Part shown: positions 3,486-44,502 of the stretch, piece by piece
How positions within the stretch are numbered: position 1 is the stretch's first letter
Layout: each line of letters starts with the position of its first letter
Source of the DNA: a virus
Virus record (IMG/VR): IMGVR_UViG_3300037521_000345
Location: 1-64,000 of that record
Strand: one strand, 5' to 3'
DNA length: 64,000 nt
The notes under the pieces: generated by a model
Databases searched by the model: none
Seen by the model: only the letters and a program-made list of their open reading frames with translations
Told to the model about the DNA's origin: nothing
Program-made: the position numbers and the translations under genes

Positions 3486-4472
3486 ATGGATGAATTTTTA
3501 GATTCTGTATGGGTAGAAAAATACAGACCAAGAAGATTGAATGATCTAGTTCTTCCTGAACAGTATAGAAGAGACTTTGAAATAATGTTGGGTAAACAGA
3601 AAATTTCAAGTCTTTTATTTTCAGGACCTCCAGGAGGAGGAAAAACCACATTAGCTAGAATCATATGTTCAAAAGAAGGTGTATTACAAAATAGAAAAGA
3701 TAATCTATTAATGGCAAATGGTTCAGCTAAATCCACAAGAAGTATTCACTTCGTAGATTCTGTTATAGAACCATTCCTGAAACATCCACCTTCAAGAGAC
3801 AAATATAAAATTGTATTTATTGATGAAGCAGATAAATTAACTCCAGAAGCTTTTGATTCATTCAGAGGAATCATAGAAAAATATCAAGCAGCTTATGGAA
3901 GATTTATTTGGACTTGTAACTACATCTATAAGATTCCTGATCCAGTTCAAAGTAGATTTACAATTTATAAATTCAAACAGATTTCAAAAGAATTTATTTT
4001 TGATTATTGTAAAAATATATTGACACTGGAGAATATTAAATTTGATGACGAATCAATATACTTGATTATCAATAGTCTCTATCCAGATGTAAGAAAAATT
4101 GTTACAACAGCAGCACAATGTTCATTAGAAGGTTCGTTGAAAGTATCAGAAAAAGATGTTATAACAGCAGAGAAAGTTGCAATCTCACATATCATTGAAA
4201 TAATTAGTTTAATTGAACAAGAGAAAATTACAAGAATTGGAAGAGAAATTAAAAGTTTAAGTGATATATTATCCAAAACTGATTTGGAATATTATAGAGT
4301 TTATAATGAGCTCTTTTTTATGGATAAGATACCAATGCCTGCAAAGATAATGATCAATAGATATTCGCTGGATCATCAATCGTGTTTATCACCACAGATG
4401 CATTTCATGGCAATGGTGTTTGATATTATCAAAACATTAAGAGACTACAAATTAGCAAGGATGAAAAAATGA
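3486..4472 (+). CDS. clamp loader AAA+ subunit (RFC small / T4 gp44-like)
   Basis: WVEKYRP, GPPGGGKTT, IDEAD, SRF. Confidence 0.9.
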   Translation: MDEFLDSVWVEKYRPRRLNDLVLPEQYRRDFEIMLGKQKISSLLFSGPPGGGKTTLARIICSKEGVLQNRKDNLLMANGSAKSTRSIHFVDSVIEPFLKHPPSRDKYKIVFIDEADKLTPEAFDSFRGIIEKYQAAYGRFIWTCNYIYKIPDPVQSRFTIYKFKQISKEFIFDYCKNILTLENIKFDDESIYLIINSLYPDVRKIVTTAAQCSLEGSLKVSEKDVITAEKVAISHIIEIISLIEQEKITRIGREIKSLSDILSKTDLEYYRVYNELFFMDKIPMPAKIMINRYSLDHQSCLSPQMHFMAMVFDIIKTLRDYKLARMKK

Positions 4473-5449
4473 TTGGAATCTATCAAGATAATTTTATAGA
4501 TTATTTAAAAGATAGATTAGGAGATCATATAAAAATAACTGCCAAGAATATTATAGTTCCATGTCCTTGGTGTGAATATCAAAAAGATAAAGATCATTAT
4601 CATTTATATATAGGATTGGATATTCCAATATTCAATTGCTTTGGTCCAGTTTGTAATAAGCATGGTTTTATTGGAAAATTTGTAAGTAAAATAGAAGGAC
4701 ATGATATAACAGATAAATTTGTAAATAAAAATTCATTACAGTTAGCAGCTAAATCAAGAAAAGAATTTAGAAATGATGAACAAATAAAGAAGCTGACAAT
4801 ACCAGAAATCAATTTAGATTCTTTTCCAAATAAACATCTTTATATTCAAAAGAGATTAAAATTTGCAAATATTTCAACTAAATATATTAAAGGTTTAATT
4901 TTTGATGTTCACGAATTTTTGAATATCAATAACATTCCAATTGATGAAACTCTTGGACGATTGAGAAACTATCTACATAGCAATTTTGTTGGGTTTGTTA
5001 CAGAAAAACATTCAATGGTAATCTTTAGAAATATTGATCACTCTCAATCTATGGCGCATTATAAATTACATATACAACTAACAAATTTTTTAGACTACTA
5101 TAAATTATTAGGAAATAAAAAAGACTCTAATCAAATAGTTCTTGCTGAAGGAATATTTGATATTTATACAGAACACATATTTGATTTTCTAAACATTAAA
5201 CATGATGTTGCTTTATATGCTTCAGTTCATTCTTCAAGATATCTCTCTTTGATAAAAAGTATAGTGTTTAATGAACAGATTTTTAGACCTGATGTAGTAA
5301 TATTGTCAGATAATAATATTGATGAAAAGCAATATAAGAATCTGAAAAAATATAATCCACATTTATTTAATTCACTTAAAGTTTATTATAATAAATATGG
5401 TAAAGATTTTAATGAAACACCTGTTATACCAGAAGAGAATATCATCTAA
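4469..5449 (+). CDS. DNA primase (Zn finger + TOPRIM)
   Basis: CPWC...FNCFGPVC, AEGIFD, LSDNN, KDFNE; replication gene context. Confidence 0.75.
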   Translation: MIGIYQDNFIDYLKDRLGDHIKITAKNIIVPCPWCEYQKDKDHYHLYIGLDIPIFNCFGPVCNKHGFIGKFVSKIEGHDITDKFVNKNSLQLAAKSRKEFRNDEQIKKLTIPEINLDSFPNKHLYIQKRLKFANISTKYIKGLIFDVHEFLNINNIPIDETLGRLRNYLHSNFVGFVTEKHSMVIFRNIDHSQSMAHYKLHIQLTNFLDYYKLLGNKKDSNQIVLAEGIFDIYTEHIFDFLNIKHDVALYASVHSSRYLSLIKSIVFNEQIFRPDVVILSDNNIDEKQYKNLKKYNPHLFNSLKVYYNKYGKDFNETPVIPEENII

Positions 5450-5464
5450 AGGAGATAAATAACA

Positions 5465-5854
5465 ATGAGCTATATTCAAGAGAAATTACAGGAAGTCTTT
5501 GAAACCACAATAGAATCAGATCAAGAGTATAACGGACCAATTGATATGATTGATTATTACTCACTTTTTTGTAAAGCAGCTTCTAATGATAATTTATTTA
5601 AATTGATGGGAAATAATTTTTGTATGTTCAAGCATTTTTATGAAAAACAAGATGCAGTTATGATTATGTTTTCAATTCCAATCAATAGTCGAGAAGAAAT
5701 AGTGGGTTCAAAAAATGTGGCAGAAAGAGTTATGGAAGTAGTTGAAGCAACAGAAAAATCTTTTATAACTATTGACAGTATGAAATCTGAAGAAATAAAA
5801 GAAGATAAATTTGTATATGTAACGATGGTTAAGGTTTTGGAAGGAGGTGTTTAA
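5465..5854 (+). CDS. hypothetical protein
   Basis: 129 aa ORF with AGGAG SD. Confidence 0.7.
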   Translation: MSYIQEKLQEVFETTIESDQEYNGPIDMIDYYSLFCKAASNDNLFKLMGNNFCMFKHFYEKQDAVMIMFSIPINSREEIVGSKNVAERVMEVVEATEKSFITIDSMKSEEIKEDKFVYVTMVKVLEGGV

Positions 5855-13607: not shown

Positions 13608-14477
13608 GTGCGAATTTATGAAACTGTATTTAACATATCTGAAGAGTTTCTAAAAGAAGGACTACCAGTTTCCATCAATAATCAAGGAATTCAATACACT
13701 GCAAAAAAGATGCTTAGAGAAGGCATCGAAAAATTCCCCATTAAACAAATCACACAAGATCATATCTATCAAGCTGTACTTCAAGAATTTGTTGGTTGCT
13801 CAATAAACTATTGTTATTGGTATGGTACATCAAATATTAGACCATATAAATCTTCTTCCGGTAAAATGTATTCATTAGTAGAGAGTGCGTTTAAAAATTA
13901 TCAACGTGGTGATAATTTTGAGATTTGTATTCATAAATTAATTGAATATCTTTCTATTAATAGATTTCCCTTATTGGAGGAAAGAGAAAAACATTTAAAA
14001 GAGTTAATTACAGATGGTGAAGATTTTTGTATTGATATTTCTAATACTATTTTTTATAAAGATACAGATGATTATTATCCCTTCTTTGAACAATTGATTA
14101 CAACATTTCCAGGATATGCATCAGACATATTCCTTAAAAGAGCATCTCTTTTTTTTCTTCAAATGAATAGGCAATATGATTGGTTTAATTCAGTGAATAA
14201 TGAATTACCTGTTCCAGCAGATTATCAACTTCCCAAGATACTAAAAGAATTTAAATGTATTGAGTATGTTCCATATTTAAATATGTTAATTGAAAATGAA
14301 ATATTAATTCCAAAAGGATCCAAGGAAGAATGCTCTATTAGATCTGCAACAATCATAGCTTGTAAAGAATTACAAAGAGAGACTGGATGGGGAATTGCTG
14401 ATGTTGATGGTTGGTTGTGGTTAAAAAGAAAACAAATAAATACTCCATTCCATCTTACAATTACATCAGATTACTAA
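13608..14477 (+). CDS. queuosine salvage family hydrolase (DUF2419/QNG1-like)
   Basis: FLKRASL, PADYQLPKIL, IRSATI, VDGWLW, PFHLTITSDY. Confidence 0.7.
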   Translation: MRIYETVFNISEEFLKEGLPVSINNQGIQYTAKKMLREGIEKFPIKQITQDHIYQAVLQEFVGCSINYCYWYGTSNIRPYKSSSGKMYSLVESAFKNYQRGDNFEICIHKLIEYLSINRFPLLEEREKHLKELITDGEDFCIDISNTIFYKDTDDYYPFFEQLITTFPGYASDIFLKRASLFFLQMNRQYDWFNSVNNELPVPADYQLPKILKEFKCIEYVPYLNMLIENEILIPKGSKEECSIRSATIIACKELQRETGWGIADVDGWLWLKRKQINTPFHLTITSDY

Positions 14478-32781: not shown

Positions 32782-33231
32782 ATGTCAACAAAAACAATTC
32801 AAGAACGATTTCAAACATTAAATGAATTAATAAGAACAGTAGCAACAAATCTCGAACCACATGATACAATCAAAGCTCTTCAACAAAAACAATTGAGAGA
32901 TAGATTAAGAGGAAAATATCCAAAGTGTTTTCTTTCTATTAAAGCAATGGGTGGACAAGATCCGGATTTTTTTCCAGTCTGTAATACAGCAGGAATGATA
33001 GATGTTAGAGCAATAGAGATATCTCTAAAAGCAGTTTCAAGATTGATGAACGATACCAGTGGAGCATATGATACTAATGATCTATCCATGATGTTAGCAA
33101 AACTTCAAAGGATGAAAGATGTCTATTCTAAGACTATTCCAAAACCACCCAATCAAGCAGGAAGAAAAGCAGTAGTCACCAGAATGATGAATAATGTTAA
33201 AGATCATTTAAAAGTAACTAGGACTGACTAA
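32782..33231 (+). CDS. hypothetical protein, first gene of RNAP operon
   Basis: 149 aa, GGAGG SD, coupled to beta' gene. Confidence 0.75.
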   Translation: MSTKTIQERFQTLNELIRTVATNLEPHDTIKALQQKQLRDRLRGKYPKCFLSIKAMGGQDPDFFPVCNTAGMIDVRAIEISLKAVSRLMNDTSGAYDTNDLSMMLAKLQRMKDVYSKTIPKPPNQAGRKAVVTRMMNNVKDHLKVTRTD

Positions 33232-36200
33232 TGAAAATAAAATTTCTTGATGTTGATAGATTTGTGAGAGGATTAGATCCTGTTACAACTGCTGAATTTA
33301 GAACTAGATCTGGAGAGTTTCATCCAGATGGTTTATTTAGTGAAAAAATATTTGGTGTTGAAAATTCTAGGGATCGAACCCAGACCTACTCATATATAAA
33401 TCTTAGTACTACAGTTATACATCCTGCTGCATTTATTATCTTTAAAAGAATTGATAAAAAACTAATTAATTTTTTTTCAACTGAAAAACTTTTTACAATT
33501 CAAGATAATGGATTATATTTTGAAACTGAAAAAGGGGTAACAGGAATCAAGGAATTTATTAAAGCATTTCCAAAGTTAGAATTTAAAGCTGGAACACCTG
33601 CAAGAGAAGGATTAATTGAAGTTTTGAAAGAGAATTATAAGAATGGTACATTATTCATTGATAAAATTCCGGTTATACCTCCTGAACTTAGACCAGCATA
33701 TATGGATGAAAAGGGTCAATGGATTATTGATGAGCTCAATCCCGTTTATATTGGTCTTTTAAGAAGAGCAACTCAAATAAAAGGTATTGGTAAATCAGGT
33801 GCATTGTTTGATCTGTTAAATTATAACTTACAATTAGCTGTTAATTCACATGATAAATATATTCGAACAAAGATCTCTAAAAAACATGGACTCATTAGAG
33901 ATAAAATGATGGGAAAAAGAGTTGATTTTTCAGCAAGAGCTGTTATTATTCCTGGACCAAAACTAAAAATTAATGATGTGGGATTACCTTTAAGAATAGG
34001 AATTCTTTTATTTCAACCTTTTATTATACACCATATGCTTTATTCTCAAAGATATCCAAGATATGCTGAATTAGAAAGTGAAATTAAAAATTATACTGAT
34101 TCTGAATTATCAGTCGATACAATAAAAAGAGTAATGAAAGGAATCAAGGATGATGATAAAATTCCTGTGTCCTTATATGAGCTATTTTTTGAAGTATGTG
34201 AAATCGTGATGAAAGATAGGGTTGTTATATTAAAACGCGACCCTGCACTACATGACGGTTCATATAGAGCATTTAACCCTATATTAACAAGAGGTAGTGA
34301 AATAGAATTATCAACAATGCAAGTTGCTTCTTTTAATGCAGATTTTGATGGAGATCAAATGGCAGTTTATCATCCTCTTTCAGATCAAGCTCAACAAGAA
34401 GCTAAAGAAAAAATGATGAGAGGAGTTGGAAGTAAAAGTTCAAATTCTATTATGTATGAGATTTCAAAAGAAATGAGTTTGGGTATTTACTTAATGACCA
34501 AAGCAACTAAATTAAAAAGTTCTCCAATAGCAGTAACAATGGATGATTTGAAAAAAGCAAATAATCCATACATCCCTGTTAGATTTAGAGGTCATAATAC
34601 AACAATGGGAAGAGCTATTTTAAATTCTTCATTTCCTTCTGACTTTAAATGGATTGATGGACAAGTTACAAAAAGTGATGTTAATAAATTAATTCCTGAA
34701 GTTATTGATAAATATGGGGATGAAGCTTCAGCTAATATTTTTACAAGTGTTAAGGATGTAGCATTTAAATTTGCAACGATTGGAGCATCTTCATTAACTT
34801 TAGATATATTAGATATACCTGATAGTATATTAAGATTGAAAGAAAAACTTGTAGGGTCATCTCCAGAAGAAGCTGATAAATTATTGAAAGAGATGGAAGT
34901 ATTATTAAAGAAACATTTAAAAGATACTGGTCTATACGATTTGATTGAATCTGGTTCTGCAAAAGGTTGGAGTCAACCAATGCAGATTCTTGTTGCTAAA
35001 GGTATTATTGCTGATACAAGTGGTAAATTGCTCGAACCTATTAAAGGATCATTTTCAGAAGGGTTAACAAATATAGAATATTTTAATGCAGCAGGTGGTG
35101 CTAGAAAAGGAATGGCAGATCGAGCTTTGAATACTGCTACAACTGGATATTTTACAAGACAACTTGTCTATGTATTATCTCCAGTAGAAGCACATCCTAC
35201 ACTAAAAGATTGTAAAACAAAACGAACTATTCAAATAAGATTAAATAATGATCTTATTAAAAGGATGTCAGGTCGATATATTATTAAAAGTGGTAAAATA
35301 GTTTTATTTAAAAAATCAGATTATAAACCAGGGGATGTTGTTAACTTAAGAACATCTATTTATTGTGAGTCTTATAAATTATGTCATACCTGTTATGGGG
35401 ATTTATTGAAACGTCATAAATCTCCTTATGTTGGAGTTCTAGCAGGAGCATCAATTGGAGAACGTGGAACTCAATTAATTATGAGAACATTTCATACTGG
35501 TGGTGCTGCTAGTATAGTTATTCGTGATGTTTTAGCAGATATTATTGATAATGATCCAATGATTGAAGTAGGTAAAACAAAGTTAGGCGAATATTTACAA
35601 CAGGAAGATGATAAATTAATAGCTAAAAAAGAATGTAATATAAAAATTGATCTGTCAACATATGAAGTAGAAAAATCTTATTTAATTGAAGAAGATAATG
35701 TTTGGTTTAATCACCTTGTTTCGCAAGTAGAATTTAATGATATAATTTTTAATATGGCACTTGATTATCCAGTTCATTTATTAAAACAGAATTTTAAAAA
35801 GGTAGGAAAAGAATCACTAATATTTAAGTATTCAATTGGAGATACGATATTAGAAATTCCTTTACAAACAACAGAGATTAAAGAGCAGGTGAATTATGTT
35901 AATAGATTAATTGGAGGTCGAGTAGTTTATAAGGATCCTTCTCATTTGTTAACAAAAGTTATGAAAGTGTATGGCGGAAGTATATCTGATTTAGACTTAT
36001 GCTATTTTGAAGTCCTATGTTCACAAGTTTTAAGAGATAGAAAGAATCAAGTATTACCTGCAAGACTTGGAAAGACTTGGGATCCTGTAATGATGAACAT
36101 TAAAAGCACAGTTTTTAGTACAAGTTTTATTCAGAGTTTAGCATTTGAAAACATCAATAAAGCTATTGAAACTGGATTGATTTCTAAACAAGATGTGCCT

Positions 36201-36248
36201 GCAACAATATTAGAGAAATTAGTGACAGGAGAGGATTTAAGGAAATAA
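33231..36248 (+). CDS. rpoC: phage multisubunit RNA polymerase beta' subunit
   Basis: GLFSEKIFG, GKRVDFSARAVI, KRDPALH, NADFDGDQM, ARKGMADRALNTATTGY, TQLIMRTFHTGG. Confidence 0.95.
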   Translation: MKIKFLDVDRFVRGLDPVTTAEFRTRSGEFHPDGLFSEKIFGVENSRDRTQTYSYINLSTTVIHPAAFIIFKRIDKKLINFFSTEKLFTIQDNGLYFETEKGVTGIKEFIKAFPKLEFKAGTPAREGLIEVLKENYKNGTLFIDKIPVIPPELRPAYMDEKGQWIIDELNPVYIGLLRRATQIKGIGKSGALFDLLNYNLQLAVNSHDKYIRTKISKKHGLIRDKMMGKRVDFSARAVIIPGPKLKINDVGLPLRIGILLFQPFIIHHMLYSQRYPRYAELESEIKNYTDSELSVDTIKRVMKGIKDDDKIPVSLYELFFEVCEIVMKDRVVILKRDPALHDGSYRAFNPILTRGSEIELSTMQVASFNADFDGDQMAVYHPLSDQAQQEAKEKMMRGVGSKSSNSIMYEISKEMSLGIYLMTKATKLKSSPIAVTMDDLKKANNPYIPVRFRGHNTTMGRAILNSSFPSDFKWIDGQVTKSDVNKLIPEVIDKYGDEASANIFTSVKDVAFKFATIGASSLTLDILDIPDSILRLKEKLVGSSPEEADKLLKEMEVLLKKHLKDTGLYDLIESGSAKGWSQPMQILVAKGIIADTSGKLLEPIKGSFSEGLTNIEYFNAAGGARKGMADRALNTATTGYFTRQLVYVLSPVEAHPTLKDCKTKRTIQIRLNNDLIKRMSGRYIIKSGKIVLFKKSDYKPGDVVNLRTSIYCESYKLCHTCYGDLLKRHKSPYVGVLAGASIGERGTQLIMRTFHTGGAASIVIRDVLADIIDNDPMIEVGKTKLGEYLQQEDDKLIAKKECNIKIDLSTYEVEKSYLIEEDNVWFNHLVSQVEFNDIIFNMALDYPVHLLKQNFKKVGKESLIFKYSIGDTILEIPLQTTEIKEQVNYVNRLIGGRVVYKDPSHLLTKVMKVYGGSISDLDLCYFEVLCSQVLRDRKNQVLPARLGKTWDPVMMNIKSTVFSTSFIQSLAFENINKAIETGLISKQDVPATILEKLVTGEDLRK

Positions 36249-36280
36249 CAGTCTGTGGAAGTATTTGGAGATAAACTCAT

Positions 36281-39200
36281 ATGATTAAATTTCAATCTTT
36301 AGTTCAATATTCAAGAGTAGTTGATGGAGTTCGTTTCTTTTCAGATAAGGATAGACCGTTCGTATTATTTTATTTCTCCGAGAATTCAACTCTATATGAA
36401 GATTATCCTAAAATGAATTTAAGAAGAATAGATGCAAGATATATAGTTGTTCCAATAACCCAGATACCTGTCTCTAGATTAACGGGCGATCAAAGAAAAG
36501 TTTATAAATCTTTTGGTTTACTTCCATTTCAATCAAATCAAGTATATCCCTTAAATGCAAATATTATATTCGATACCAGTAAATATGTTTCCTTGATAGA
36601 TAAGATGTATAAACCAACAACATATAGACAAAGAGCAGGTTTTCTTCTAAATAATTTTCTTTATAAATCATTTAATTCGTTTCCTGATAACTATGAAAAA
36701 GTTCTAATTTATACTGTTGATGTTAATAAACCAATCAATTCGTTTATAAATCGAAAGATTTTTCCTATATTAAGAACTATGAAAGGAGATGAAATTTCAT
36801 TTGATCATATGCTTATGGCATTGATTGGAGAGTCGTCAACTAGATATAGACTATTAGTTAAAGACAGAAACTATAAATTTGCAAGAGTTTCTCAATATAT
36901 AAGAAAAGTTAAAATGATTAGTTCAGATGATGAGAAAGAACAAGAAGTTAAAACAGCAACGAACTCATTTGATGAGAAAGATTCTAAAGTTAAAACAGCA
37001 ATTCAAAACTATTTAAATAAAAATGCTAAAGATCTTGAGAAAGTTTCTAATAATGAACTTGATAAAACAGAAAGAGATAGATTAACAATAGCTTCTATCT
37101 TATATAAATTAACAGGAGATTTTCAAAAGTCTCAAAGACTTGCAAAAGCTATTCCTAAAAAAAGTATTAAAACTGCAACTGAAAAGATAAGTCGTTTATA
37201 TAAAGATGACTTATTAACAGGTGAAAAAGCTGTTAGTCTTAGTGAATCATATATTGTTCAGGGAATAAATGTTTCCAGGGTAGTTCAAAATAAAACACCA
37301 GAGCATATATTTGACAAAAGAAGAATTGACTTTCAAACAAATTTAAAAAAGGATATGTCAAATGCTTTTAAAGTTTTAGAAAAAGGAAACGTTCCTATTA
37401 AATTTAATTCATTTAAAATTACTCATAAAAAAGGAAGAGCTGGAGAACTTAAAAAATCAGATGTTTCAATTATAACTGTAAGTATAACAGATGCAGCAGG
37501 AAAGAATCAAACATTTGAGTTTGAAATTCCACAGATTGATCCTGACTCTGGAACATTTAGAGTTAATGGTCAGCGCAAATGTTTAATTAATCAAATAGTG
37601 TTGACTCCAATAAGTTTTCCTAAACCTTATGATTCCAAATTTGAGAGTTCATATGCAAGATTCCATATCTATAGTAAGAAGACAAAGAGATTGTCGTATC
37701 TAGAAGCATACATGGGTTCCTTCCGCCTACCCTTGATGATACTGTTATCATATTGTTTTGGATTTGAAAAAACAGTTAAAAAATTAGGATTACAATATGA
37801 AATTGTAAAAGATAAACCTAATAAGGATGTAGTCTTTACAGAAGTTCCTTCTTCATATATGGTATTTAAAAATTTAGATACTGATTTAAAAAAGGAAATG
37901 GTAACATCATTCACGCACGCTAAAATTAATCAATACAACATTAAAAAAGATTTTTTATCAAAAGATTATTTTGTAGAGTTGATTATACAAATGACTGGAC
38001 GTGTCGATTCAACATATCTGATAAATAATAATATTGATTATATCGTTGATCCAGTTGCAAAACAAATTTTAGTTAATCAATTATTACCATATAAATTAGA
38101 AGATATTATGCATTATATGGCAACTAAATCTGTTGATGGTTATGTTCAAGAAAGAAATGATATTAAATATCAAAGAATTAGAAATTCAGAAATTTTAGTT
38201 CATTTAGCACAAAAACAATTTCTTAGTTCTTATACTGAATATAAAGAACAGTTTTTATCAGGAAATAAAGATGCTAAATTTAATTTTCCTCCAGGAGTTA
38301 TATTAAGTCAATTTACTAACTTAGAGATAGTTCAAAATATGGAGTATGCAAATCCAGTTGAAGAGATGGCAACAATTACAAAGATTTCTCCAGTTGGAAA
38401 AACAGTTGGAGGTATTCCAGATAAGGAAGGATTAAATCTTCAAGCTCGAAATGTTCATAGATCATATTTTGGAAATATTGATCCGGTGGATACAGCAGAA
38501 GGTGGTAACATTGGGGTAACCCAACAGTTGACAGTGGACGCATATTTAACATCCTCCCGTGGATTGTTTGGAATTAAAGATTTAAAAAATGATGAAGGAG
38601 CTGGAATATTATCTACAACACTTTCAATGGTTCCATTTATTGAAAACAATGAAGGTGCAAGAATGATAATGGCAGGTAATCAAGGAAAACAAATGTTACC
38701 TTTAAAAAATCCAGAACCTCCTATAGTTCAAACAGGATATGAGTCATTACTTTCAAATGTTTTGTCTAATAATTTTATCAAGAGATCACCTTGTGCTGGA
38801 AAAGTGACAAAAATTACTGGAGATTTTATTGAAATAGCTTGTAATAAAGGTTCTAAAAAGAAAGTTGTTATCACACCAGTTCAATTAAAATCAGGAGCTG
38901 GAAAAAATACATTGAGCACATTTAAACCATCTGTTGAGGTTGGACAATCAGTTAAAAATAAGCAAGTAATTGCAGAGGGAAGTTGTATTTCTGGCGGAAC
39001 TATTTCATTAGGAAGAAATCTTGCTACTTGTTATATGCCTTATCAAGGATATAATTTTGAAGATGGTCTTGTAATAAATGAACGATTAGTATCTGATGAT
39101 AAATTAACTTCTTTACATGGAATTGATGTTGAGGCAACAGTTGATCGTAAAGATAGAATTTTACATATTATTGATATTGGAGCTAAAACTAAAAAGGGTG

Positions 39201-40345
39201 ACCCTCTAATAAGAAAGACAGCAGGTGAAATTGAAGAACTATTAGGATTTCAAGAAGAAGAGGAAGAAGGAGTTGATGTATATGAGGGTCAAATAATTAC
39301 AAAAAGTCCAGGTGGTCATGTTGTTGATATTGACGTATTTTCTAATATTGATATAGATTCTTTTCCTTCCATTAAAAAGTTAGTTGAAAGAACTAATAAA
39401 AAATATAAAAAACCTACTAAAGAAAAATTTACAACTAGAGGGGTTTCAATTAAAGGGATATTAATTATATTTAGAATTGAACAAGAGTTAAAAATTGGAG
39501 TGGGAGATAAACTCTGTAACCGATATGGAAATAAAGGTATTATATCTTTAGTTCAAAAAGATGAATTAATGCCAAGAACACCTTGGGGTGAAACAGTTGA
39601 TATTATTATGAATCCTCTTGGAGTTACTGGTCGAATGAATATAGGTCAAATATATGAATTGTATTGTGGTCTTATCTCTAAAGAAGTAGCAAATAGAATG
39701 GTTAAATTGAGCAAAGCTCAAGGCATTGCATTGATGAAAGCTGTAATAACAAGACTTGATAATACAAAAAATAAAAAAATTAGTACATCATTGATTGCTA
39801 CAATGACTGCAATGAGCGATGTAAAATATAAAAAGATGTTAGAGCAAATTCAAAAAGATAAGTTTATACCAATAGTTATTCCTCCATTTCAATCTCCTAA
39901 ACATAAAAGTATTTTAGAAGTATTAAAATTATTAAAATTAAAAACAGGATATAAATTAAAACTTCCAGAGTATAATACAAAAACTCAAAATGCGGTTCCA
40001 TTTGGATATGAATATGTTTCTAAATTAGAACATATTTCAGATGCTAAATTACATGCTAGATCAACTGGTCCAACAACTGGAAAAGTTGGTCAACCAACTG
40101 CTGGTAAAAGAAAAGAGGGTGGGCAAAGAATAGGAGAAGGAGATACATGGGCATTAACAAGTTATAATTGTCCTACAATATTATCTGAACTCTTTGGACC
40201 TATGTCTGATGACTTTGTATCTAAAAATGAAATGATGTCAGAAATTATACAAAATGGAAGAACAGATTTTAAAGAAACAAAAATGTCTCCAACTAGAGAT
40301 TTATTAAAAGCATATTTTATTTCTTTAATGCTAGGAGGTCAATAA
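36281..40345 (+). CDS. rpoB: phage multisubunit RNA polymerase beta subunit with N-terminal extension
   Basis: GTFRVNG, DTAEGGNIG, GYNFEDG, GDKLCNRYGNKG, MNPLGVTGRMNIGQ, KLEH, GGQRIGE. Confidence 0.95.
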   Translation: MIKFQSLVQYSRVVDGVRFFSDKDRPFVLFYFSENSTLYEDYPKMNLRRIDARYIVVPITQIPVSRLTGDQRKVYKSFGLLPFQSNQVYPLNANIIFDTSKYVSLIDKMYKPTTYRQRAGFLLNNFLYKSFNSFPDNYEKVLIYTVDVNKPINSFINRKIFPILRTMKGDEISFDHMLMALIGESSTRYRLLVKDRNYKFARVSQYIRKVKMISSDDEKEQEVKTATNSFDEKDSKVKTAIQNYLNKNAKDLEKVSNNELDKTERDRLTIASILYKLTGDFQKSQRLAKAIPKKSIKTATEKISRLYKDDLLTGEKAVSLSESYIVQGINVSRVVQNKTPEHIFDKRRIDFQTNLKKDMSNAFKVLEKGNVPIKFNSFKITHKKGRAGELKKSDVSIITVSITDAAGKNQTFEFEIPQIDPDSGTFRVNGQRKCLINQIVLTPISFPKPYDSKFESSYARFHIYSKKTKRLSYLEAYMGSFRLPLMILLSYCFGFEKTVKKLGLQYEIVKDKPNKDVVFTEVPSSYMVFKNLDTDLKKEMVTSFTHAKINQYNIKKDFLSKDYFVELIIQMTGRVDSTYLINNNIDYIVDPVAKQILVNQLLPYKLEDIMHYMATKSVDGYVQERNDIKYQRIRNSEILVHLAQKQFLSSYTEYKEQFLSGNKDAKFNFPPGVILSQFTNLEIVQNMEYANPVEEMATITKISPVGKTVGGIPDKEGLNLQARNVHRSYFGNIDPVDTAEGGNIGVTQQLTVDAYLTSSRGLFGIKDLKNDEGAGILSTTLSMVPFIENNEGARMIMAGNQGKQMLPLKNPEPPIVQTGYESLLSNVLSNNFIKRSPCAGKVTKITGDFIEIACNKGSKKKVVITPVQLKSGAGKNTLSTFKPSVEVGQSVKNKQVIAEGSCISGGTISLGRNLATCYMPYQGYNFEDGLVINERLVSDDKLTSLHGIDVEATVDRKDRILHIIDIGAKTKKGDPLIRKTAGEIEELLGFQEEEEEGVDVYEGQIITKSPGGHVVDIDVFSNIDIDSFPSIKKLVERTNKKYKKPTKEKFTTRGVSIKGILIIFRIEQELKIGVGDKLCNRYGNKGIISLVQKDELMPRTPWGETVDIIMNPLGVTGRMNIGQIYELYCGLISKEVANRMVKLSKAQGIALMKAVITRLDNTKNKKISTSLIATMTAMSDVKYKKMLEQIQKDKFIPIVIPPFQSPKHKSILEVLKLLKLKTGYKLKLPEYNTKTQNAVPFGYEYVSKLEHISDAKLHARSTGPTTGKVGQPTAGKRKEGGQRIGEGDTWALTSYNCPTILSELFGPMSDDFVSKNEMMSEIIQNGRTDFKETKMSPTRDLLKAYFISLMLGGQ

Positions 40346-40941
40346 TGAGTGGGTTAGAAGCTTTATGCGGTGATTTAATCATTCCACCTGAAATGGATAA
40401 CTATGAAGAAGATGTTGATAAATATCATGATCTCGCCAGTTTCAGGTATGCTGCTCTTGATATAATAAATGTAGTTGGAAAAATTGACTTTAAAGAACTA
40501 TATATTGTTCAAATGGATACTATTAAAAAACAAACAATGTATGTACAGAGAGTATTTCTTATTGAAATGCTACAAAAGATAAGTGAAATTTATGATTGGG
40601 AATTTCCTGATGAATGGAGTTTAGTTGATACTTCATATCAACAAGAACAATTATATAAGTTTATAGAATTTATTGAATTTGATAATTATAGATTTTTATC
40701 CTACGTTTGGAGATTTTTATTAGATGATACTACTAAACTTATAAGATTCGATATTGATAATTTTTGTAAAAAAAATGTTATGAAGATAATTAAAGAGACA
40801 GAAGAACAGTTAGAAACTCATTTTCAAAGCAAGATGATTACTATTTTTCTTAGAACATATTACAAAGAGAAGTTCATTGAATGGTTTAGTTTAATGAGTA
40901 GGAGATATAAAGTAGAAATAATTTCTGAACTTTATGAATAA
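40345..40941 (+). CDS. hypothetical protein
   Basis: 198 aa, coupled to rpoB. Confidence 0.7.
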   Translation: MSGLEALCGDLIIPPEMDNYEEDVDKYHDLASFRYAALDIINVVGKIDFKELYIVQMDTIKKQTMYVQRVFLIEMLQKISEIYDWEFPDEWSLVDTSYQQEQLYKFIEFIEFDNYRFLSYVWRFLLDDTTKLIRFDIDNFCKKNVMKIIKETEEQLETHFQSKMITIFLRTYYKEKFIEWFSLMSRRYKVEIISELYE

Positions 40942-40953
40942 AAGGAGAAAAGA

Positions 40954-41211
40954 ATGGGAGAAGCAACAATTACAATTAAAAAGGGAGTGGTTGTCTTAAA
41001 AGCTCCAAAATCTGAATTAATCGAAGTATCTGAAACTCATGACGGTATAGCTTTTAACTTCAAACGTGGACTACAATTGTATCAAGTTGAACAATATATG
41101 CCATCACATATTAAACAACTTATTAAGAATACAACTGATTCATTTGAAGGAAATAATATCATTATAGATTTAGATGATGCAAAGAAACCAATTATGGTTG
41201 ACGCTACTTAA
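40954..41211 (+). CDS. hypothetical protein
   Basis: 85 aa, AGGAG SD. Confidence 0.7.
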   Translation: MGEATITIKKGVVVLKAPKSELIEVSETHDGIAFNFKRGLQLYQVEQYMPSHIKQLIKNTTDSFEGNNIIIDLDDAKKPIMVDAT

Positions 41212-41230
41212 TTCATTTTAAAAAATACAT

Positions 41231-41246
41231 CTATATATATTAATAA
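41231..41246 (+). promoter_or_regulatory. recurring phage promoter-like motif A CTATATATATTAATAA
   Basis: Exact copy about 30 nt upstream of the RNA array. Confidence 0.7.
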
Positions 41247-41274
41247 CTGATAAAGAGAAAATTGTTTAGTTTTT

Positions 41275-41387
41275 AAGTTCTAAGAAGACTTTATGTGATT
41301 CCAGAGCTGTGTTGGTACAGCATCATACTATAAATGTGAAGTCAGGGTTCGAGTCCCTCATATTACATTTCTTACTTCTTAGAATTT
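41275..41387 (+). ncRNA. array unit 1: Y-RNA-like scaffold carrying tRNA-like D/anticodon(ATA)/T arms
   Basis: TTCTAAGAAG/CTTCTTAGAA outer stem; ATGTGAT/ATTACAT inner stem; GCTG-TGTTGGTA-CAGC, TCATA-CTATAAA-TGTGA, AGGG-TTCGAGT-CCCT. Confidence 0.75.
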
Positions 41388-41397
41388 TTATTTTTTA

Positions 41398-41503
41398 TCT
41401 GGAAAGACTTTATGTGATTTCCGAGCTGTGTTGGTACAGCATCTTACTATTAATAAGAAGCAAGGGTTCAACTCCCTGTAACTTACATCTGCTACTTTCC
41501 AGA
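41398..41503 (+). ncRNA. array unit 2: same scaffold with tRNA-like D/anticodon(ATT)/T arms
   Basis: TCTGGAAAG/CTTTCCAGA; ATGTGA/TTACAT; GCTG-TGTTGGTA-CAGC, TCTTA-CTATTAA-TAAGA, AGGG-TTCAACT-CCCT. Confidence 0.75.
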
Positions 41504-41514
41504 CCTATCAAAAT

Positions 41515-41580
41515 TTTCTAAGAAGACTTTGTGTAATTCCAGATCGATGCATCCAAATTACACCTATTACTTCTTAGAAA
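41515..41580 (+). ncRNA. array unit 3: short scaffold RNA
   Basis: TTTCTAAGAAG/CTTCTTAGAAA; GTGTAATT/AATTACAC; CCAGA motif. Confidence 0.7.
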
Positions 41581-41590
41581 CACAACTTTC

Positions 41591-41690
41591 AGATGAGAAG
41601 ACTATATGTGGTTTCAGAATACAGAAGCAAGTGTTTAATACACACTTAGTCCTTGTAATACCTTTGTCCTACATAAACTACTTCTCATCT
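41591..41690 (+). ncRNA. array unit 4: scaffold RNA with internal hairpin
   Basis: AGATGAGAAG/CTTCTCATCT; TATGTGG/CTACATA; TCAGA; AAGTGT-TTAATAC-ACACTT hairpin. Confidence 0.7.
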
Positions 41691-41697
41691 CATTTTT

Positions 41698-41762
41698 CCT
41701 GAAAGACTTTTTGTAATTTCAGATTTATTGGAAAATCATCAATTACAATTACTACTTTCAGG
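41698..41762 (+). ncRNA. array unit 5: short scaffold RNA
   Basis: CCTGAAAG/CTTTCAGG; TTGTAATT/AATTACAA; TCAGA. Confidence 0.7.
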
Positions 41763-41770
41763 TTTTACTT

Positions 41771-41837
41771 TGTGGGGTCACTCAGTATAGAAAAAAACCT
41801 ATTCGGGGTTCTAAACCTATACTAATAGTACCCCACA
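41771..41837 (+). ncRNA. array unit 6: sequence-divergent hairpin with same geometry
   Basis: TGTGGGGT/ACCCCACA, 5x6 internal loop, AGTATAG/CTATACT, apical AACC/GGTT hairpin. Confidence 0.55.
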
Positions 41838-41845
41838 TCTTTTCT

Positions 41846-41904
41846 AAATGGACTTAATGTGATTTCAGACCTGCATAGTGTTAAGATTACATTTACTTCC
41901 ATTT
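41846..41904 (+). ncRNA. array unit 7: short scaffold RNA
   Basis: AAATGG/CCATTT; ACTT; AATGTGATT/GATTACATT; TCAGA. Confidence 0.65.
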
Positions 41905-42001
41905 TTTTGAAAGGAAATTGATGAAAGATTCTTTTATTCTAAAACATTGGTTATAATTGCTTTACGTCGTCAGAAACATTTAAAGGGAAAGGAGATCTAA
42001 A

Positions 42002-43513
42002 GTGCCAGGAGAGTTAGGATTAATTGATTCAGGTATATTGCAGTTTGCTCCAAAGGGAGCTTATTATGAAGGAAAAGATGAGCAATATAATGCCATCAAT
42101 AGCATGTGGGAAAGTCTATTTAAATATGATAGAACTTTATTTTCTTTGCTAATGTTGTTAAATGGAACAGGTTTTGCAAAGGGATCAATGTCTCACATCT
42201 TATTATCGAATCCATTAGAGGAATCCAAACTTCCAGTATTAGATAACCTACCTTCCCATTTTGAGAAGGATATTATAAACTATGCTCTTTATAAGGAGAG
42301 AACTCCAAGAGCATTGAAAAATTTATTAATGTTAACAGGAGCAGAAGGGCACAGTAAAGTTAATAATTCTAGAACAAGAAAAATGATTTTAGAATTTATA
42401 TTCAATCGAGATAATAATAATCTTGATAATCTTGCTGTGAATTATAAAGGCAAACTTCAAACGCTGATTACACATGCTCTTGGAAAACAAGATCTAGCAA
42501 AAATTCTTGGTGGTGACAAAAAATCATTTGAAAAATTCATTGGAAAATATAATAGACATTCTTTTCCTGTAGTTCTTCATATATTCAATATGGATATTCC
42601 AACTGTGGGAGCTTACTTTCCAATGATTGAAAAATATTATAAACTTCGAAACGCAGCACAAGAGAAAAATATTACAGAATTTAAAAAATTAATGAAGGGC
42701 ATGCCAGAAAGAACAGTCATGGGTATGAGGAATTTATATAAAGTTAACATTCCTATATCTGAATTAAAAGATGAAACTACCAAATCACAAAAGGATAGAA
42801 TTCAAGGACAGGCAGCAGCTAAAAGAGCTGGAACAAAGATAGATATTGATTATAAAAAACAAGATATCTATGACTTATTTAAATTTCTATATTTTAAAAT
42901 CAAAAACAATGATGGTGAGGATTTTAATAAAATATTATATGCCATTGATCACGTTGCAGGCAAACTTCCTAAAATAGATATTGGAGAATGTGTAGTAGTT
43001 ATGGATGCTTCACATTCAATGATGGGAAGTGATGAAAGACCAATGCATCCATTTCTAACTGGACTATCTATTACTGCAACTCTCAAAAATATAAGAGAGT
43101 ATATATATGTTGGAGGAGAAACAGCTAAAATGGAAGGTAATGATTTTCCAGAAATTGTAGTTCCTTGCAATAGTACAGATTTATGGAGAGGATTGATCAA
43201 AGCTGTTAAAACAGGTGTTGAAAATATAGTTATCATTTCAGATGGTTATGAAAACACCATCAAAGGAATGTTCAAACACGTATATGATCACTTAAAAAAG
43301 AATGGATATAAGTTCAAAGTAACTCATATCAATCCTGTATTTTCAGCTTCATCTGTTAATGGTTCAACAAGAAAATTAGCAGATGATATTAAATCTATGC
43401 CAGTAGGAAACTATAAGTATTTAGAAACAGAAGTTATTTTTTCTAGACTTGTAGAGGATAAGGAAATGGTTAAAAAAATATTAATCTCAAAATATAGAAA
43501 TTTACTTCAATAA
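42002..43513 (+). CDS. vWA-domain protein with helical N-terminus, Ro60/TROVE-like
   Basis: GTG start with AAGGAG SD; C-terminal MIDAS VVMDASHSM...STDL...IISDGYEN; 503 aa and architecture like Ro60 (TROVE identity inferred). Confidence 0.65.
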   Translation: MPGELGLIDSGILQFAPKGAYYEGKDEQYNAINSMWESLFKYDRTLFSLLMLLNGTGFAKGSMSHILLSNPLEESKLPVLDNLPSHFEKDIINYALYKERTPRALKNLLMLTGAEGHSKVNNSRTRKMILEFIFNRDNNNLDNLAVNYKGKLQTLITHALGKQDLAKILGGDKKSFEKFIGKYNRHSFPVVLHIFNMDIPTVGAYFPMIEKYYKLRNAAQEKNITEFKKLMKGMPERTVMGMRNLYKVNIPISELKDETTKSQKDRIQGQAAAKRAGTKIDIDYKKQDIYDLFKFLYFKIKNNDGEDFNKILYAIDHVAGKLPKIDIGECVVVMDASHSMMGSDERPMHPFLTGLSITATLKNIREYIYVGGETAKMEGNDFPEIVVPCNSTDLWRGLIKAVKTGVENIVIISDGYENTIKGMFKHVYDHLKKNGYKFKVTHINPVFSASSVNGSTRKLADDIKSMPVGNYKYLETEVIFSRLVEDKEMVKKILISKYRNLLQ

Positions 43514-43530: not shown

Positions 43531-44502
43531 ATGTCAATATTGAAAACATTAGGATTTACAAATCTTAATGCTGGAACCGTTCAAGTTGTGGATGAAATGA
43601 CAGTAGTGCCCTTAATTAGTGAAGATTTAGGACAAGTTGCTGAACCATTTTCATTGAAATTCAGACGAACAAACACTTATGGTTCCATGATTTATGAGAA
43701 TTTAGATAAGGAATCTCCTGCGATCATTCCCAATAATATTATGGTGAGAGGATTGAGTGCACAGGATCACGCAATGGCAGGATCAGGAGTGGTTAAAGCT
43801 GAAAAATCAAAAACATTCAATAATGCTTGCTGTATTGAATCAAGTCAAGGTGGATATCTAGGTGAAGAAAATAATGAATATGATATCTTGCCTGTTCAGC
43901 TTCGTAAGAAACTTATTCCATTAGATATAAGAAATAAAAAAAGTTATGATAAATTATGGCCAGAAATTACAGCATGGTTGAAAGGTACTATTGATGTATC
44001 TCCTCGTTTCTCAAGTGCCCATCTAAGATATTTCTATGATGATCCTGAAATAAAGAAATCTCTTGAAACATTCTCCGCTGAATTTGAACCTGTATTAAAT
44101 CAAATCGGTGCTATTATATTATTTACAGATAACATTGTTGGTATAGAAGTTATGCCAACTCTTTCACATTGGTATTATTACTGGAAATTATTAATTCGTG
44201 GATGTTATGGAGCTGAATTATTAAGACGTAAAAAATTAAATATAATTAAACCAGCTAAATTGAAACTTCCAAAACTTCCAAAAGATATTGATCAGATATC
44301 TTTAGTTGGCGATACTTATACAGATGGTATTCGTCAAAACATTATTAAAAAATTAGACACTATTAATTTGAAAACAACTTCAACTATTATAGAAAAAGTT
44401 GAAGATATTAATATTATATTATTAAACAGTGAATCAGGTGGTAGCGGTGGAGATTTGATTACTCAAAAAGATAAACCAATATATCTTTCTATAGTGATGT
44501 AA
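43531..44502 (+). CDS. ARPP/DUF6569-like protein
   Basis: N-terminal Q...MTVVPL, AQDH, CCIESSQGG, NQIGAII...VGIEV pattern recalled for this family. Confidence 0.5.
   Translation: MSILKTLGFTNLNAGTVQVVDEMTVVPLISEDLGQVAEPFSLKFRRTNTYGSMIYENLDKESPAIIPNNIMVRGLSAQDHAMAGSGVVKAEKSKTFNNACCIESSQGGYLGEENNEYDILPVQLRKKLIPLDIRNKKSYDKLWPEITAWLKGTIDVSPRFSSAHLRYFYDDPEIKKSLETFSAEFEPVLNQIGAIILFTDNIVGIEVMPTLSHWYYYWKLLIRGCYGAELLRRKKLNIIKPAKLKLPKLPKDIDQISLVGDTYTDGIRQNIIKKLDTINLKTTSTIIEKVEDINIILLNSESGGSGGDLITQKDKPIYLSIVM

What the first reader, a model, noticed from the sequence alone, without database searches (positions are those of the whole stretch)
41301..41480. tRNA mimics lacking an acceptor end and carrying A34 anticodons (ATA, ATT)
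Seen: units 1 and 2 contain a D arm (GCTG-TGTTGGTA-CAGC, with GG), 5-bp anticodon stems with 7-nt loops CT-ATA-AA and CT-ATT-AA (stems covary TCATA/TGTGA vs TCTTA/TAAGA), a short variable loop and a T arm (GGTTCRANTCC). There is no 7-bp acceptor stem or CCA and U8/A14 is lost; the scaffold stem replaces the acceptor arm. Unit 4 also has a 7-nt loop hairpin reading TT-AAT-AC. Established: bacterial Tyr/Asn tRNAs use G34/Q34 (GUA, GUU), and A34 is essentially restricted to tRNA-Arg(ACG). As I recall, YrlA Y RNAs replace the anticodon arm rather than the acceptor arm, so this topology would differ. Inference: non-translating decoys or baits for anticodon nucleases, tRNA-modifying toxins or tRNA enzymes. 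Tyr and Asn are queuosine families, and the window encodes QueD and a Q-salvage enzyme.
Basis: partly seen in the sequence, partly recalled or inferred. Interest (0 to 1): 0.8.

Follow-up and report, generated by a model that had tools for sequence, protein, structure and literature searches.

The report
tRNA-shaped heads of phage Y-like RNAs
The two acceptor-less tRNA look-alikes are real and conserved, but they are best read as the tRNA-shaped heads of two members of a six-unit array of Y-RNA-like small RNAs that a jumbo phage encodes just upstream of a very diverged Ro60-type RNA-binding ring protein; their odd A34 "anticodons" look like drift, not a designed feature.

Summary
Observation confirmed. 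Units 1 and 2 (41278-41384, 41397-41504) each carry D, anticodon-like and T arms on a two-helix scaffold, with no acceptor stem or CCA. They score 29.0 and 29.9 bits on Rfam tRNA, and ARAGORN calls nothing. They are not decaying pseudogenes: across 20 homologues, 22 of 28 pairs show compensatory changes.

They belong to an array of six scaffold units plus one odd hairpin, behind a phage promoter-like motif. Downstream lie a 503-aa protein and an ARPP-1 gene. The protein has no Pfam hit, but its model matches Ro60 (TROVE+vWA) along its whole length. The same RNA array, Ro60-like gene and ARPP-1 gene recur together in about 75 related phage loci.

Best reading: a new branch of Ro60/Y-RNA particles. 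The scaffold would be the protein handle and the tRNA-shaped head the adaptor.

The A34/queuosine-decoy idea is not supported as a family feature. Among 74 distinct homologous heads the triplet is hypervariable and changes about as fast as the variable loop, while U33 and R37 are kept. A34 occurs in 17 of 74, and in only 3 of 22 heads of the window's own class. One oddity remains: no GUN triplet was seen.

This scan has already noted the same kind of module on other genomes. I found no paper describing it.

The parts
41230..41245 (+). Promoter-like motif TCTATATATATTAATA ahead of the array
   Evidence: Four copies in the window, all on the + strand (1141, 29829, 31092, 41230), against 0.73 expected. 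The same motif precedes the array in all 11 IMG/VR relatives read.
41278..41384 (+). Unit 1: scaffold (9-bp outer stem, internal loop ACUUU/UUCUUA, 7-bp inner stem, junction UCCAGA) carrying an acceptor-less tRNA-like head
   Evidence: Model R1 scores 97.2 bits, E 2.8e-21. Stems as extracted.
41306..41359 (+). tRNA-like head of unit 1: D arm, anticodon-like arm (loop CUAUAAA, triplet AUA), T arm
   Evidence: Rfam tRNA 29.0 bits, model positions 9-63. Parsed.
41397..41504 (+). Unit 2: the same scaffold with a paralogous acceptor-less tRNA-like head
   Evidence: Model R1 scores 99 bits, E 1e-21. The minimum-free-energy fold reproduces the scaffold plus three arms.
41425..41478 (+). tRNA-like head of unit 2: D arm, anticodon-like arm (loop CUAUUAA, triplet AUU), T arm
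   Evidence: Rfam tRNA 29.9 bits. It is 86% identical to unit 1 over 74 nt.
41516..41579 (+). Unit 3: scaffold with a short hairpin head
   Evidence: R1 51.5 bits. Fold z-score -5.1.
41591..41690 (+). Unit 4: scaffold with a 55-nt head that includes a 5-bp stem with the 7-nt loop UUAAUAC
   Evidence: R1 46.8 bits. Fold.
41696..41764 (+). Unit 5: scaffold with a short hairpin head
   Evidence: R1 49.4 bits. Fold z-score -4.3.
41771..41837 (+). Odd hairpin of a second RNA type (GGGG...AUUCGGGGUUC...CCCC), without the scaffold motifs
   Evidence: Fold -26.5 kcal/mol, z-score -4.7. Similar hairpins sit in the relatives' arrays. R1 does not match it.
41842..41908 (+). Unit 6: scaffold with a short head, followed by a U run
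   Evidence: R1 33.9 bits, E 7.7e-6.
42002..43513 (+). Diverged Ro60-like protein (helical TROVE-like ring plus vWA domain with a DxSxS MIDAS motif, DASHS)
   Evidence: No Pfam, PHROG or PDB sequence hit. AF2 model pLDDT 83. The top 12 Foldseek PDB hits are all Ro60. In an unbiased search of 48,161 chains the only full-length matches are Ro60 (Z 12.3, 11.4, 11.2). ESM Atlas neighbours are TROVE clusters.
43531..44502 (+). ARPP-1 domain protein, the invariable downstream partner
   Evidence: PF20208, E 2.3e-16. A homologue starts 13-62 nt after the Ro60-like gene in 74 of 74 loci with enough sequence.

Best explanation
Units 1 and 2 are two paralogous members of a tandem array of Y-RNA-like small RNAs of a jumbo phage.

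Shown:
- Each RNA closes its 5' and 3' ends into a conserved two-helix scaffold. The order is outer stem, internal loop with invariant ACU, inner stem with a conserved UGU/ACA core, then the junction UUCAGA. A swappable head sits on top.
- In units 1 and 2 the head is a tRNA body without the acceptor arm. The D/T-loop elbow (GG in the D loop, UUCRA in the T loop) and the anticodon-loop shape (U33, purine 37) are conserved. The triplet is free to vary.
- The array lies behind a phage promoter-like motif, on the same strand as, and directly upstream of, a diverged Ro60-like (TROVE+vWA) gene and an ARPP-1 gene. This three-part module is conserved across a whole clade of large phages.

Inferred:
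- The array is transcribed and cut at the U-rich linkers.
- The scaffold binds the Ro60-like ring, as Y RNA stems bind Ro60.
- The tRNA-shaped head acts as an adaptor. It would bring a factor that recognises tRNA shape (an exoribonuclease such as PNPase, RNase P, or a tRNA repair or modification enzyme), or tRNA substrates, to the Ro60-like/ARPP-1 particle during infection.
- The A34 triplets AUA and AUU are products of unconstrained drift at positions 34-36, not a functional design.
For: 1. Protein. The fold of the 503-aa protein matches Ro60 along its whole length: 9kop/9l5y phage phiLo Ro60, 2nvo Rsr and 1yvp Xenopus Ro. An unbiased search of 48,161 chains gave the same result, as did the ESM Atlas.

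2. Linkage.
- All 11 IMG/VR loci carry the scaffold motif just upstream of the homologue.
- Model R1 gives 267 hits in 65 of 67 loci, all on the gene's strand and upstream of it.
- No real unit was found elsewhere in the own genome or in IMG/VR pattern hits.
- A 28%-identical homologue in the 462-kb phage LR756500.1 also has a scaffolded tRNA upstream.

3. RNA selection. 22 of 28 pairs show compensatory changes, and every control was beaten. Scaffold stems covary across 270 distinct units, while ACU and UUCAGA stay nearly invariant.

4. Precedent.
- Bacterial and phage Ro60 genes have adjacent Y RNAs whose effector module mimics tRNA (PMC4201824).
- Phage phiLo has Yrl1 and Yrl2 upstream of its Ro60, and they form complexes with host PNPase (PMC12135203).
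- D. radiodurans Yrn1 has an anticodon-arm-like hairpin and a different orientation from YrlA.

5. Free triplet. More than 25 different triplets occur in 74 heads, with U33 and R37 kept. The triplet's rate is close to that of the variable loop.
Against: - No sequence-level link to TROVE exists. There was no Pfam hit at E<=10, and a family profile searched against PDB sequences found nothing. The Ro60 assignment rests on predicted structure, with high rmsd (7.6-11 A) and Z values near the tool's caution zone for helical repeats.
- The bacterial Ro-binding motif GNCGAAN0-1G is absent from the scaffold.
- No Rfam Y-RNA family matches.
- Binding, transcription and processing are all untested.
- The two most distant loci of the protein family (L083, L084) have no array upstream.
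- Relatives carry complete tRNAs with an encoded CCA inside the same scaffold, so part of the family could still feed translation.
Confidence: 0.6

Rival explanations
1. Decoys or baits. The heads would present anticodon loops to host anticodon nucleases, tRNA-modifying toxins or TGT. AUN triplets would be uncleavable or unmodifiable versions of the queuosine-family GUN loops. This could also be the specific job of a Ro60-like particle rather than an alternative to it.
For: The anticodon-loop shape (U33, R37/A38) is conserved while the triplet varies fast, as an arms race could produce. In 74 distinct heads there are 11 AUN triplets against about 6.8 expected, and no GUN against about 4 expected. 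The partner ARPP-1 belongs to conflict-system contexts (PMC9503650). The window encodes QueD and a Q_salvage fragment.
Against: - The triplet rate (0.43) is not clearly above the variable-loop rate (0.35), so neutral drift is enough to explain it.
- A34 (23%) is below the background A content of 33%.
- The window's class has mostly ordinary triplets: UGA, GAU, UGU, GCU.
- The classic nuclease target UUU (Lys) never appears.
- The GUN/AUN statistic is post hoc and is not corrected for shared ancestry.
- No TGT lies in the 99-kb record.
Confidence: 0.15
2. Remnants of a phage tRNA gene cluster. The scaffold would be only a processing cassette (leader-trailer pairing) for real tRNAs, and units 1 and 2 would be decayed copies that lost the acceptor arm.
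For: Relatives hold complete tRNAs in the same scaffold: up to 67 bits on Rfam tRNA, with 25 of 25 showing at least 5 of 7 acceptor pairs and mostly an encoded NCCA. U34 is over-represented (55%), as in real tRNA sets.
Against: - Acceptor-less heads form a conserved class (22 distinct) whose three arms and scaffold are kept by compensatory changes. That is not decay.
- Most units carry no tRNA-like head at all.
- Triplets include the stop-reading UUA in loci whose genes read normally in code 11.
- The strict linkage to the Ro60-like gene is left unexplained.
Confidence: 0.1
3. A cis-acting structured leader. The array would be the 5' UTR of the Ro60-like/ARPP-1 operon and regulate it, for example by autoregulatory binding or by sensing tRNA-binding factors, rather than supply trans-acting RNAs.
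For: No strong terminator lies between the array and the gene. The array sits on the same strand with a single upstream promoter-like motif in the window. A further conserved element lies just before the start codon.
Against: The number of units (2-8) and their heads vary freely between relatives. Some relatives have a second promoter motif inside the array (L001). U-rich linkers follow the units. A distant relative has four ORFs between its scaffolded tRNA and the gene.
Confidence: 0.07

Closest known systems
YrlA-type Y RNAs with bacterial or phage Ro60 (Rsr); Chen et al. 2014 (PMC4201824); YrlA structure (10.1101/312249)
   Same: The small RNA genes lie next to a Ro60-type gene. The 5' and 3' ends pair into a long stem interrupted by an internal loop. 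The apical module mimics tRNA with a conserved D/T elbow. There is no free CCA and no decoding role. Such RNAs are also present in phages.
   Different: YrlA runs T arm, closed acceptor loop, D arm; the Ro stem sits at the anticodon-stem position and there is no anticodon loop. Here the order is D, anticodon arm, T, and the scaffold takes the acceptor position. The scaffold lacks the GNCGAA motif, and no Rfam Y-RNA family matched. Here there are 3-8 units in tandem with swappable heads. The protein is not recognisable as TROVE by sequence.
Deinococcus radiodurans Yrn1 (PMC4201824)
   Same: It can be drawn with a T arm, D-loop features and an anticodon-arm-like 5-bp hairpin between them, so the Ro-binding stem lies on the acceptor side.
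   Different: Yrn1 has a 6-nt loop, no variable region and an unconvincing D arm. The window's units have a full D arm, a 7-nt loop with U33/R37 and a variable region. Yrn1 keeps the metazoan-like Ro-binding helix.
Thermus phage phiLo Ro60 with Yrl1/Yrl2 (PMC12135203; PDB 9KOP, 9L5Y)
   Same: It is the best structural match of the protein (Z 12.3-13.7). It is phage-encoded, and its Y-like RNA genes lie directly upstream of the Ro60 gene.
   Different: phiLo has two RNAs with a CGAA bulge and no tRNA-like head is described. Sequence identity to the window's protein is about 14%. No ARPP-1 partner is reported.
Canonical tRNA (Rfam RF00005)
   Same: D, anticodon and T arms with the GG and UUCRA elbow, U33 and R37. 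The scores just reach the gathering score.
   Different: No acceptor stem, no CCA, G at position 8 and U at 14. ARAGORN rejects them. The triplet is unconstrained among homologues.
Dictyostelid Class I RNAs (PMC7919456)
   Same: A short terminal stem joins the 5' and 3' ends, with a conserved single-stranded motif just 3' of the 5' strand and a variable remainder. The resemblance was raised by earlier notes of this scan.
   Different: Only a 5-6-nt likeness, which I recall rather than tested: the paper's text as held does not print the motif. Those are eukaryotic RNAs with no Ro60 link. No Rfam hit was found.

Membership tests
Ro60/Y-RNA ribonucleoprotein (Y RNA in the broad sense) | The ncRNA gene(s) lie adjacent to a Ro60 (TROVE+vWA) gene | tested here: met
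   The array ends 94 nt before the gene. The protein's fold matches Ro60 full-length. The linkage holds in 65 of 67 loci.
Ro60/Y-RNA ribonucleoprotein (Y RNA in the broad sense) | The protein carries the TROVE sequence signature (PF05731) | tested here: not met
   No Pfam hit at E<=10. A family profile against PDB sequences found no Ro60. The similarity is at fold level only.
Ro60/Y-RNA ribonucleoprotein (Y RNA in the broad sense) | The 5' and 3' ends pair into a stem-internal loop-stem handle with a variable apical module | tested here: met
Ro60/Y-RNA ribonucleoprotein (Y RNA in the broad sense) | Conserved Ro-binding motif (bacterial GNCGAAN0-1G, or the metazoan bulged helix) | tested here: not met
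   The conserved scaffold elements are G-ACU, UGU/ACA and UUCAGA. There is no CGAA in the handle.
Ro60/Y-RNA ribonucleoprotein (Y RNA in the broad sense) | The RNA physically binds the Ro60 protein | not testable with these tools
YrlA (Rfam Y-RNA-like family) | Match to the family's covariance model | tested here: not met
   A scan of all 4227 Rfam families at E<=10 over 40900-42100 gave only tRNA and chance hits. The same held in 7 relatives.
YrlA (Rfam Y-RNA-like family) | Permuted order T arm, closed acceptor loop, D arm, with the Ro stem at the anticodon position and no anticodon loop | tested here: not met
   The window's units run D arm, anticodon arm with a 7-nt loop, T arm.
Canonical tRNA | 7-bp acceptor stem with a 3' NCCA or a site for its addition | tested here: not met
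   Unit 1 aligns only to model positions 9-63. Unit 2 has 5 of 7 pairs with two mismatches and no CCA. ARAGORN calls none.
Canonical tRNA | Anticodon conserved among orthologues | tested here: not met
tRNA pseudogene | The arms decay without compensation among homologues | tested here: not met
   93.4% of cells pair, and 22 of 28 pairs have changes on both sides.

The most novel reading that the evidence does not exclude
The Ro60-like/ARPP-1 particle would be a phage counter-defence that displays tRNA anticodon-loop look-alikes on a protein-bound handle. Its loops would diversify, and avoid G34-U35, in an arms race with host anticodon nucleases or tRNA-modifying toxins. That would make it a programmable tRNA-decoy system, with the window's AUA and AUU heads as uncleavable Tyr/Asn baits.
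Probability: 0.15. Interest if true: 0.85.

Novelty: new variant of a known kind. Interest (0 to 1): 0.6.

Why it matters
Ro60/Y-RNA particles are known from animals, bacteria and a few phages, but what their tRNA-like modules bind is still open.

This clade offers a natural experiment. One handle carries many heads: tRNA bodies without an acceptor, with a closed CCA-loop acceptor, or complete with CCA. All are tied to a Ro60 relative too diverged for sequence annotation and to an uncharacterised enzyme-like partner, ARPP-1.

It shows that the tRNA elbow and the anticodon-loop shape are under selection, while the anticodon itself is not. That narrows the search for the partner to factors that recognise tRNA shape.

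It also warns against reading meaning into odd 'anticodons' of tRNA mimics taken from a single genome.

Tried and rejected
Loci came from the search for related loci instead.
The Ro60-like/ARPP-1 contact was not tested, although alignments A1 and A3 were prepared.

Searches that found nothing:
- Sequence searches of the 503-aa protein: Pfam at E<=10, PHROGs, phmmer and a family profile against PDB.
- blastn of the array against GenBank phages.
- GTDB genome contigs hold no relative of this protein subfamily, so no host clue.
- The exact-pattern scan of IMG/VR for the scaffold motif gave 29 stretches. Outside the already known contigs only one marginal model hit appeared (23 bits, a GC-rich unrelated contig), so these are chance matches.
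- Rfam gave no Y-RNA, tmRNA or other family at the array. One 22-bit tmRNA partial hit in L007 is the T arm.

Ideas tested and dropped:
- A34/queuosine reading. A34 is not enriched, AUN is only mildly over expectation, and the absence of GUN is post hoc. There is no TGT in the record.
- Diversifying selection on the triplet. It is not distinguishable from the variable-loop rate.
- Class I RNA likeness. It was not pursued beyond reading the paper.

One caveat on folding: unit 1's minimum-free-energy fold does not give the cloverleaf. The comparative structure does.

Full report
**1. What is there**

The 790-nt gap between an 85-aa ORF (40954-41211) and a 503-aa ORF (42002-43513) holds six units that share a 5' motif, consensus AGAAGACTTTATGTGATTYCAGA, and a matching 3' half. 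Each unit closes into four parts:
- an outer stem of about 9 bp;
- an internal loop, 5' ACUUU against about 6 nt ending in UA;
- a 7-bp inner stem with a UGU/ACA core;
- a single-stranded junction, UUCAGA.

A variable insert of 19-63 nt sits on top. A seventh hairpin (41771-41837) is of another type.

In units 1 and 2 the insert is a tRNA body with D, anticodon-like and T arms but no acceptor arm. Rfam tRNA gives 29.0 bits over model positions 9-63 for unit 1 and 29.9 bits for unit 2, against a gathering score of 29. ARAGORN reports no tRNA in the window. The two units are tandem paralogues, 86% identical over 74 nt.

**2. The neighbour is a hidden Ro60**

The 503-aa protein has no Pfam, PHROG or PDB sequence match. 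It does carry a DxSxS MIDAS-like motif, DASHS.
- An AlphaFold2 model built from 25 homologues has pLDDT 83 and pTM 0.77.
- The 12 best Foldseek hits in the PDB are all Ro60/TROVE proteins at probability 1.0: Thermus phage phiLo, D. radiodurans Rsr, Xenopus and human.
- VIA-align gives Z 11-13.7 over residues 3-502.
- In a Foldseek-independent search of 48,161 representative chains, the only full-length matches are the three Ro60 representatives (Z 12.3, 11.4, 11.2; 378-381 residues aligned). Every other row is a vWA domain alone.
- The ESM Atlas places it among TROVE/vWA_Ro60 clusters, with cosine 0.95-0.96 and TM 0.76-0.77.

The rmsd values are high (7.6-11 A), and helical repeats can give inflated Z. 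I therefore call it Ro60-like by fold and architecture, not a sequence-level TROVE member.

The next gene (43531-44502) is an ARPP-1 domain protein (PF20208, E 2.3e-16).

**3. The module is conserved**

The protein has more than 226 homologues, all from metagenomes and on contigs up to 248 kb. I fetched 11 IMG/VR loci and 80 metagenome loci.
- Every IMG/VR locus has the scaffold motif in a run just upstream of the homologue. The run is preceded by the same promoter-like motif, TCTATATATATTAATA. In the window that motif occurs four times, all on the + strand.
- A script found 314 units, 270 of them distinct, in 77 loci.
- A covariance model built from 20 acceptor-less homologues (A2, R1) finds the six window units and nothing else in the 99-kb genome record.
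- The same model gives 267 hits in 65 of 67 loci, all on the gene's strand and upstream of it.
- ARPP-1 follows the Ro60-like gene within 13-62 nt in 74 of 74 loci.
- An exact-pattern scan of IMG/VR found no genuine unit outside these contigs.
- A 28%-identical homologue in the 462-kb phage LR756500.1 has one scaffolded tRNA-Leu(UAA) 1.4 kb upstream.
- The two most diverged loci (L083, L084) lack an array upstream.

The genome record is a virus fragment that CheckV estimates as 32% complete, so the phage is probably about 300 kb. It encodes its own unsplit RNA polymerase beta' and beta just upstream.

**4. The heads are under selection, so they are not pseudogenes**

On the 20 acceptor-less homologues RNAalifold recovers the outer stem, inner stem, D, anticodon and T helices, and 22 of 28 pairs have compensatory changes. 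Counting on that structure:

| Measure | Observed | Control |
|---|---|---|
| Cells paired | 93.4% | 70.5% shuffled; 39-49% slid |
| Covariation score | 0.614 | 0.178 (0 of 500 shuffles as high) |

All five anticodon-arm pairs change on both sides. The GG of the D loop and U55 and A58 of the T loop are invariant or nearly so, so the tRNA elbow is preserved.

**5. Three head topologies**

Among 74 distinct cloverleaf heads:
- **Class A2 (22 heads, including the window's two).** No acceptor; 2-11 nt link the T stem to the scaffold.
- **Class A1 (24 heads).** In 18 of them a hairpin of at least 6 of 7 bp follows the T stem, and its loop starts with NCCA or holds it one base away. This is a closed acceptor: a tRNA permuted at position 7/8.
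- **Class B (25 heads).** A normal acceptor stem (at least 5 of 7 pairs in all 25), usually an encoded NCCA, then an A-rich linker back to the scaffold. These score up to 67 bits on Rfam tRNA.

In some class B units the conserved UUCAGA junction itself forms part of the acceptor's 5' strand.

**6. The anticodon**
- Positions 33 (U in about 95%) and 37 (purine) are conserved. Positions 34-36 have near-maximal entropy.
- Identical anticodon stems carry up to 8 different loops.
- A34 occurs in 17 of 74 heads (23%), against 33% A in the inserts, and in only 3 of 22 heads of class A2. AUN occurs 11 times against about 6.8 expected. GUN never occurs against about 4 expected.
- In 33 pairs of close homologues (no more than 3 of 28 stem differences), the per-site differences were as follows:

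| Region | Per-site difference |
|---|---|
| Stems | 0.058 |
| T loop | 0.13 |
| D loop | 0.16 |
| Variable loop | 0.35 |
| Triplet (34-36) | 0.43 |

The triplet therefore behaves like an unconstrained position, while the loop's shape is kept. A34 is not a family trait. The window's two A34 heads trace to one duplication.

The absence of GUN is an unexplained oddity. It is post hoc and uncorrected for shared ancestry.

**7. Comparison with the known**
- Bacterial and phage Ro60 genes are flanked by Y RNAs whose effector module mimics tRNA. YrlA is modified by TruB and DusA, and M. smegmatis YrlA is cut by RNase P and receives CCA (PMC4201824).
- YrlA runs T arm, closed acceptor loop, D arm, with the Ro-binding stem in place of the anticodon stem and no anticodon loop (10.1101/312249).
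- D. radiodurans Yrn1 was modelled with an anticodon-arm-like hairpin and the opposite orientation. It is the nearest topological precedent.
- Phage phiLo has two Y-like RNAs upstream of its Ro60, and they form complexes with host PNPase (PMC12135203).
- Jumbo phages are known to carry TROVE proteins occasionally (PMC7824862).
- ARPP is an uncharacterised, probably enzymatic domain from conflict systems. A Ro60 context is not among those described for it (PMC9503650).
- The scaffold lacks the bacterial GNCGAA motif, and no Rfam Y-RNA family matches.

I therefore file this as a new variant of the Ro60/Y-RNA kind, not as a YrlA member.

**8. Mechanism**

Shown: the anatomy, the covariation, the linkage to the Ro60-like and ARPP-1 genes, and the free triplet with a conserved loop shape.

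Inferred: transcription from the upstream motif, cutting at the U-rich linkers, binding of the handle to the Ro60-like ring, and the head acting as an adaptor for a factor that recognises tRNA shape.

The rivals are a decoy for anticodon-directed enzymes, a decayed tRNA cassette, and a cis-acting leader. They are weighed in their own sections.

**9. Context of this scan**

Earlier notes of this scan describe the same kind of module (handle-tagged tRNA mimics beside a hidden Ro60, often with ARPP-1) on several other genomes, and a sister note covers this genome. They are AI notes, not independent evidence. I re-derived each point used here. My literature searches found no paper describing this family.

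**10. Limits**

There are no expression data and no binding test. The Ro60 assignment rests on predicted structure. The unit finder required at least 6 paired positions per stem, which inflates the pairing figures but not those. The head parser is strict and misses irregular heads.

Noticed in passing
window 41771-41837; also L001:3757-3840, L004:3345-3410: A second conserved hairpin type sits inside the arrays (GGGG...AUUCGGGGUUC...CCCC). It has the same stem-loop-stem geometry but none of the scaffold motifs, and model R1 does not match it.
   Followed up: partly
window 41925-41975; relatives about 100 nt before the Ro60-like start: A conserved nucleotide element lies between the last unit and the ribosome-binding site: AAAA(A/C)ATTGG(A/T)TAT...TTACGT(C/T)G. 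The reading frame is not kept between relatives, so it looks like an RNA or DNA signal rather than a leader peptide.
   Followed up: no
window 1141, 29829, 31092, 41230 (+ strand): The promoter-like motif TCTATATATATTAATA occurs four times, against 0.73 expected. It may be the promoter of the phage's own RNA polymerase. The copy at 29829 precedes another ORF-free stretch.
   Followed up: partly
L002:3680-3797, L020:489-618, L030:2178-2303, L037:2174-2303, L038:2174-2303, L065:2104-2234, L066:2108-2238: Seven distinct relatives carry, inside the scaffold, a complete tRNA with the stop-reading triplet UUA. In most an NCCA-like end (ACCA or GCCA) is encoded; L030 and L066 deviate. Their Ro60-like genes nonetheless read through normally in code 11.
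   Followed up: partly
L004:3480-3525, L007:3478-3522, L009:3047-3095: A further nearly identical hairpin (TATGCCGG.GATACACATGTTTATCCATGTGCCGGCTCCAT) is shared by three otherwise diverged arrays.
   Followed up: no
L127 (LR756500.1, 462-kb uncultured phage) 1300-1428 and 2872-5483: A 28%-identical Ro60-like gene is followed by a 345-aa ORF. One scaffolded tRNA-Leu(UAA) lies 1.4 kb upstream (R1 48.7 bits), separated from the gene by four small ORFs.
   Followed up: partly
window 33231-40345: Unsplit phage RNA polymerase beta' (1005 aa) and beta (1354 aa), in the order beta' then beta, lie just upstream of the array's operon.
   Followed up: no
window 13608-14477: A 289-aa phage ORF matches only positions 168-240 of the Q_salvage family (PF10343, 46 bits). 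That family gave no match in any of the 14 control prokaryote genomes.
   Followed up: no
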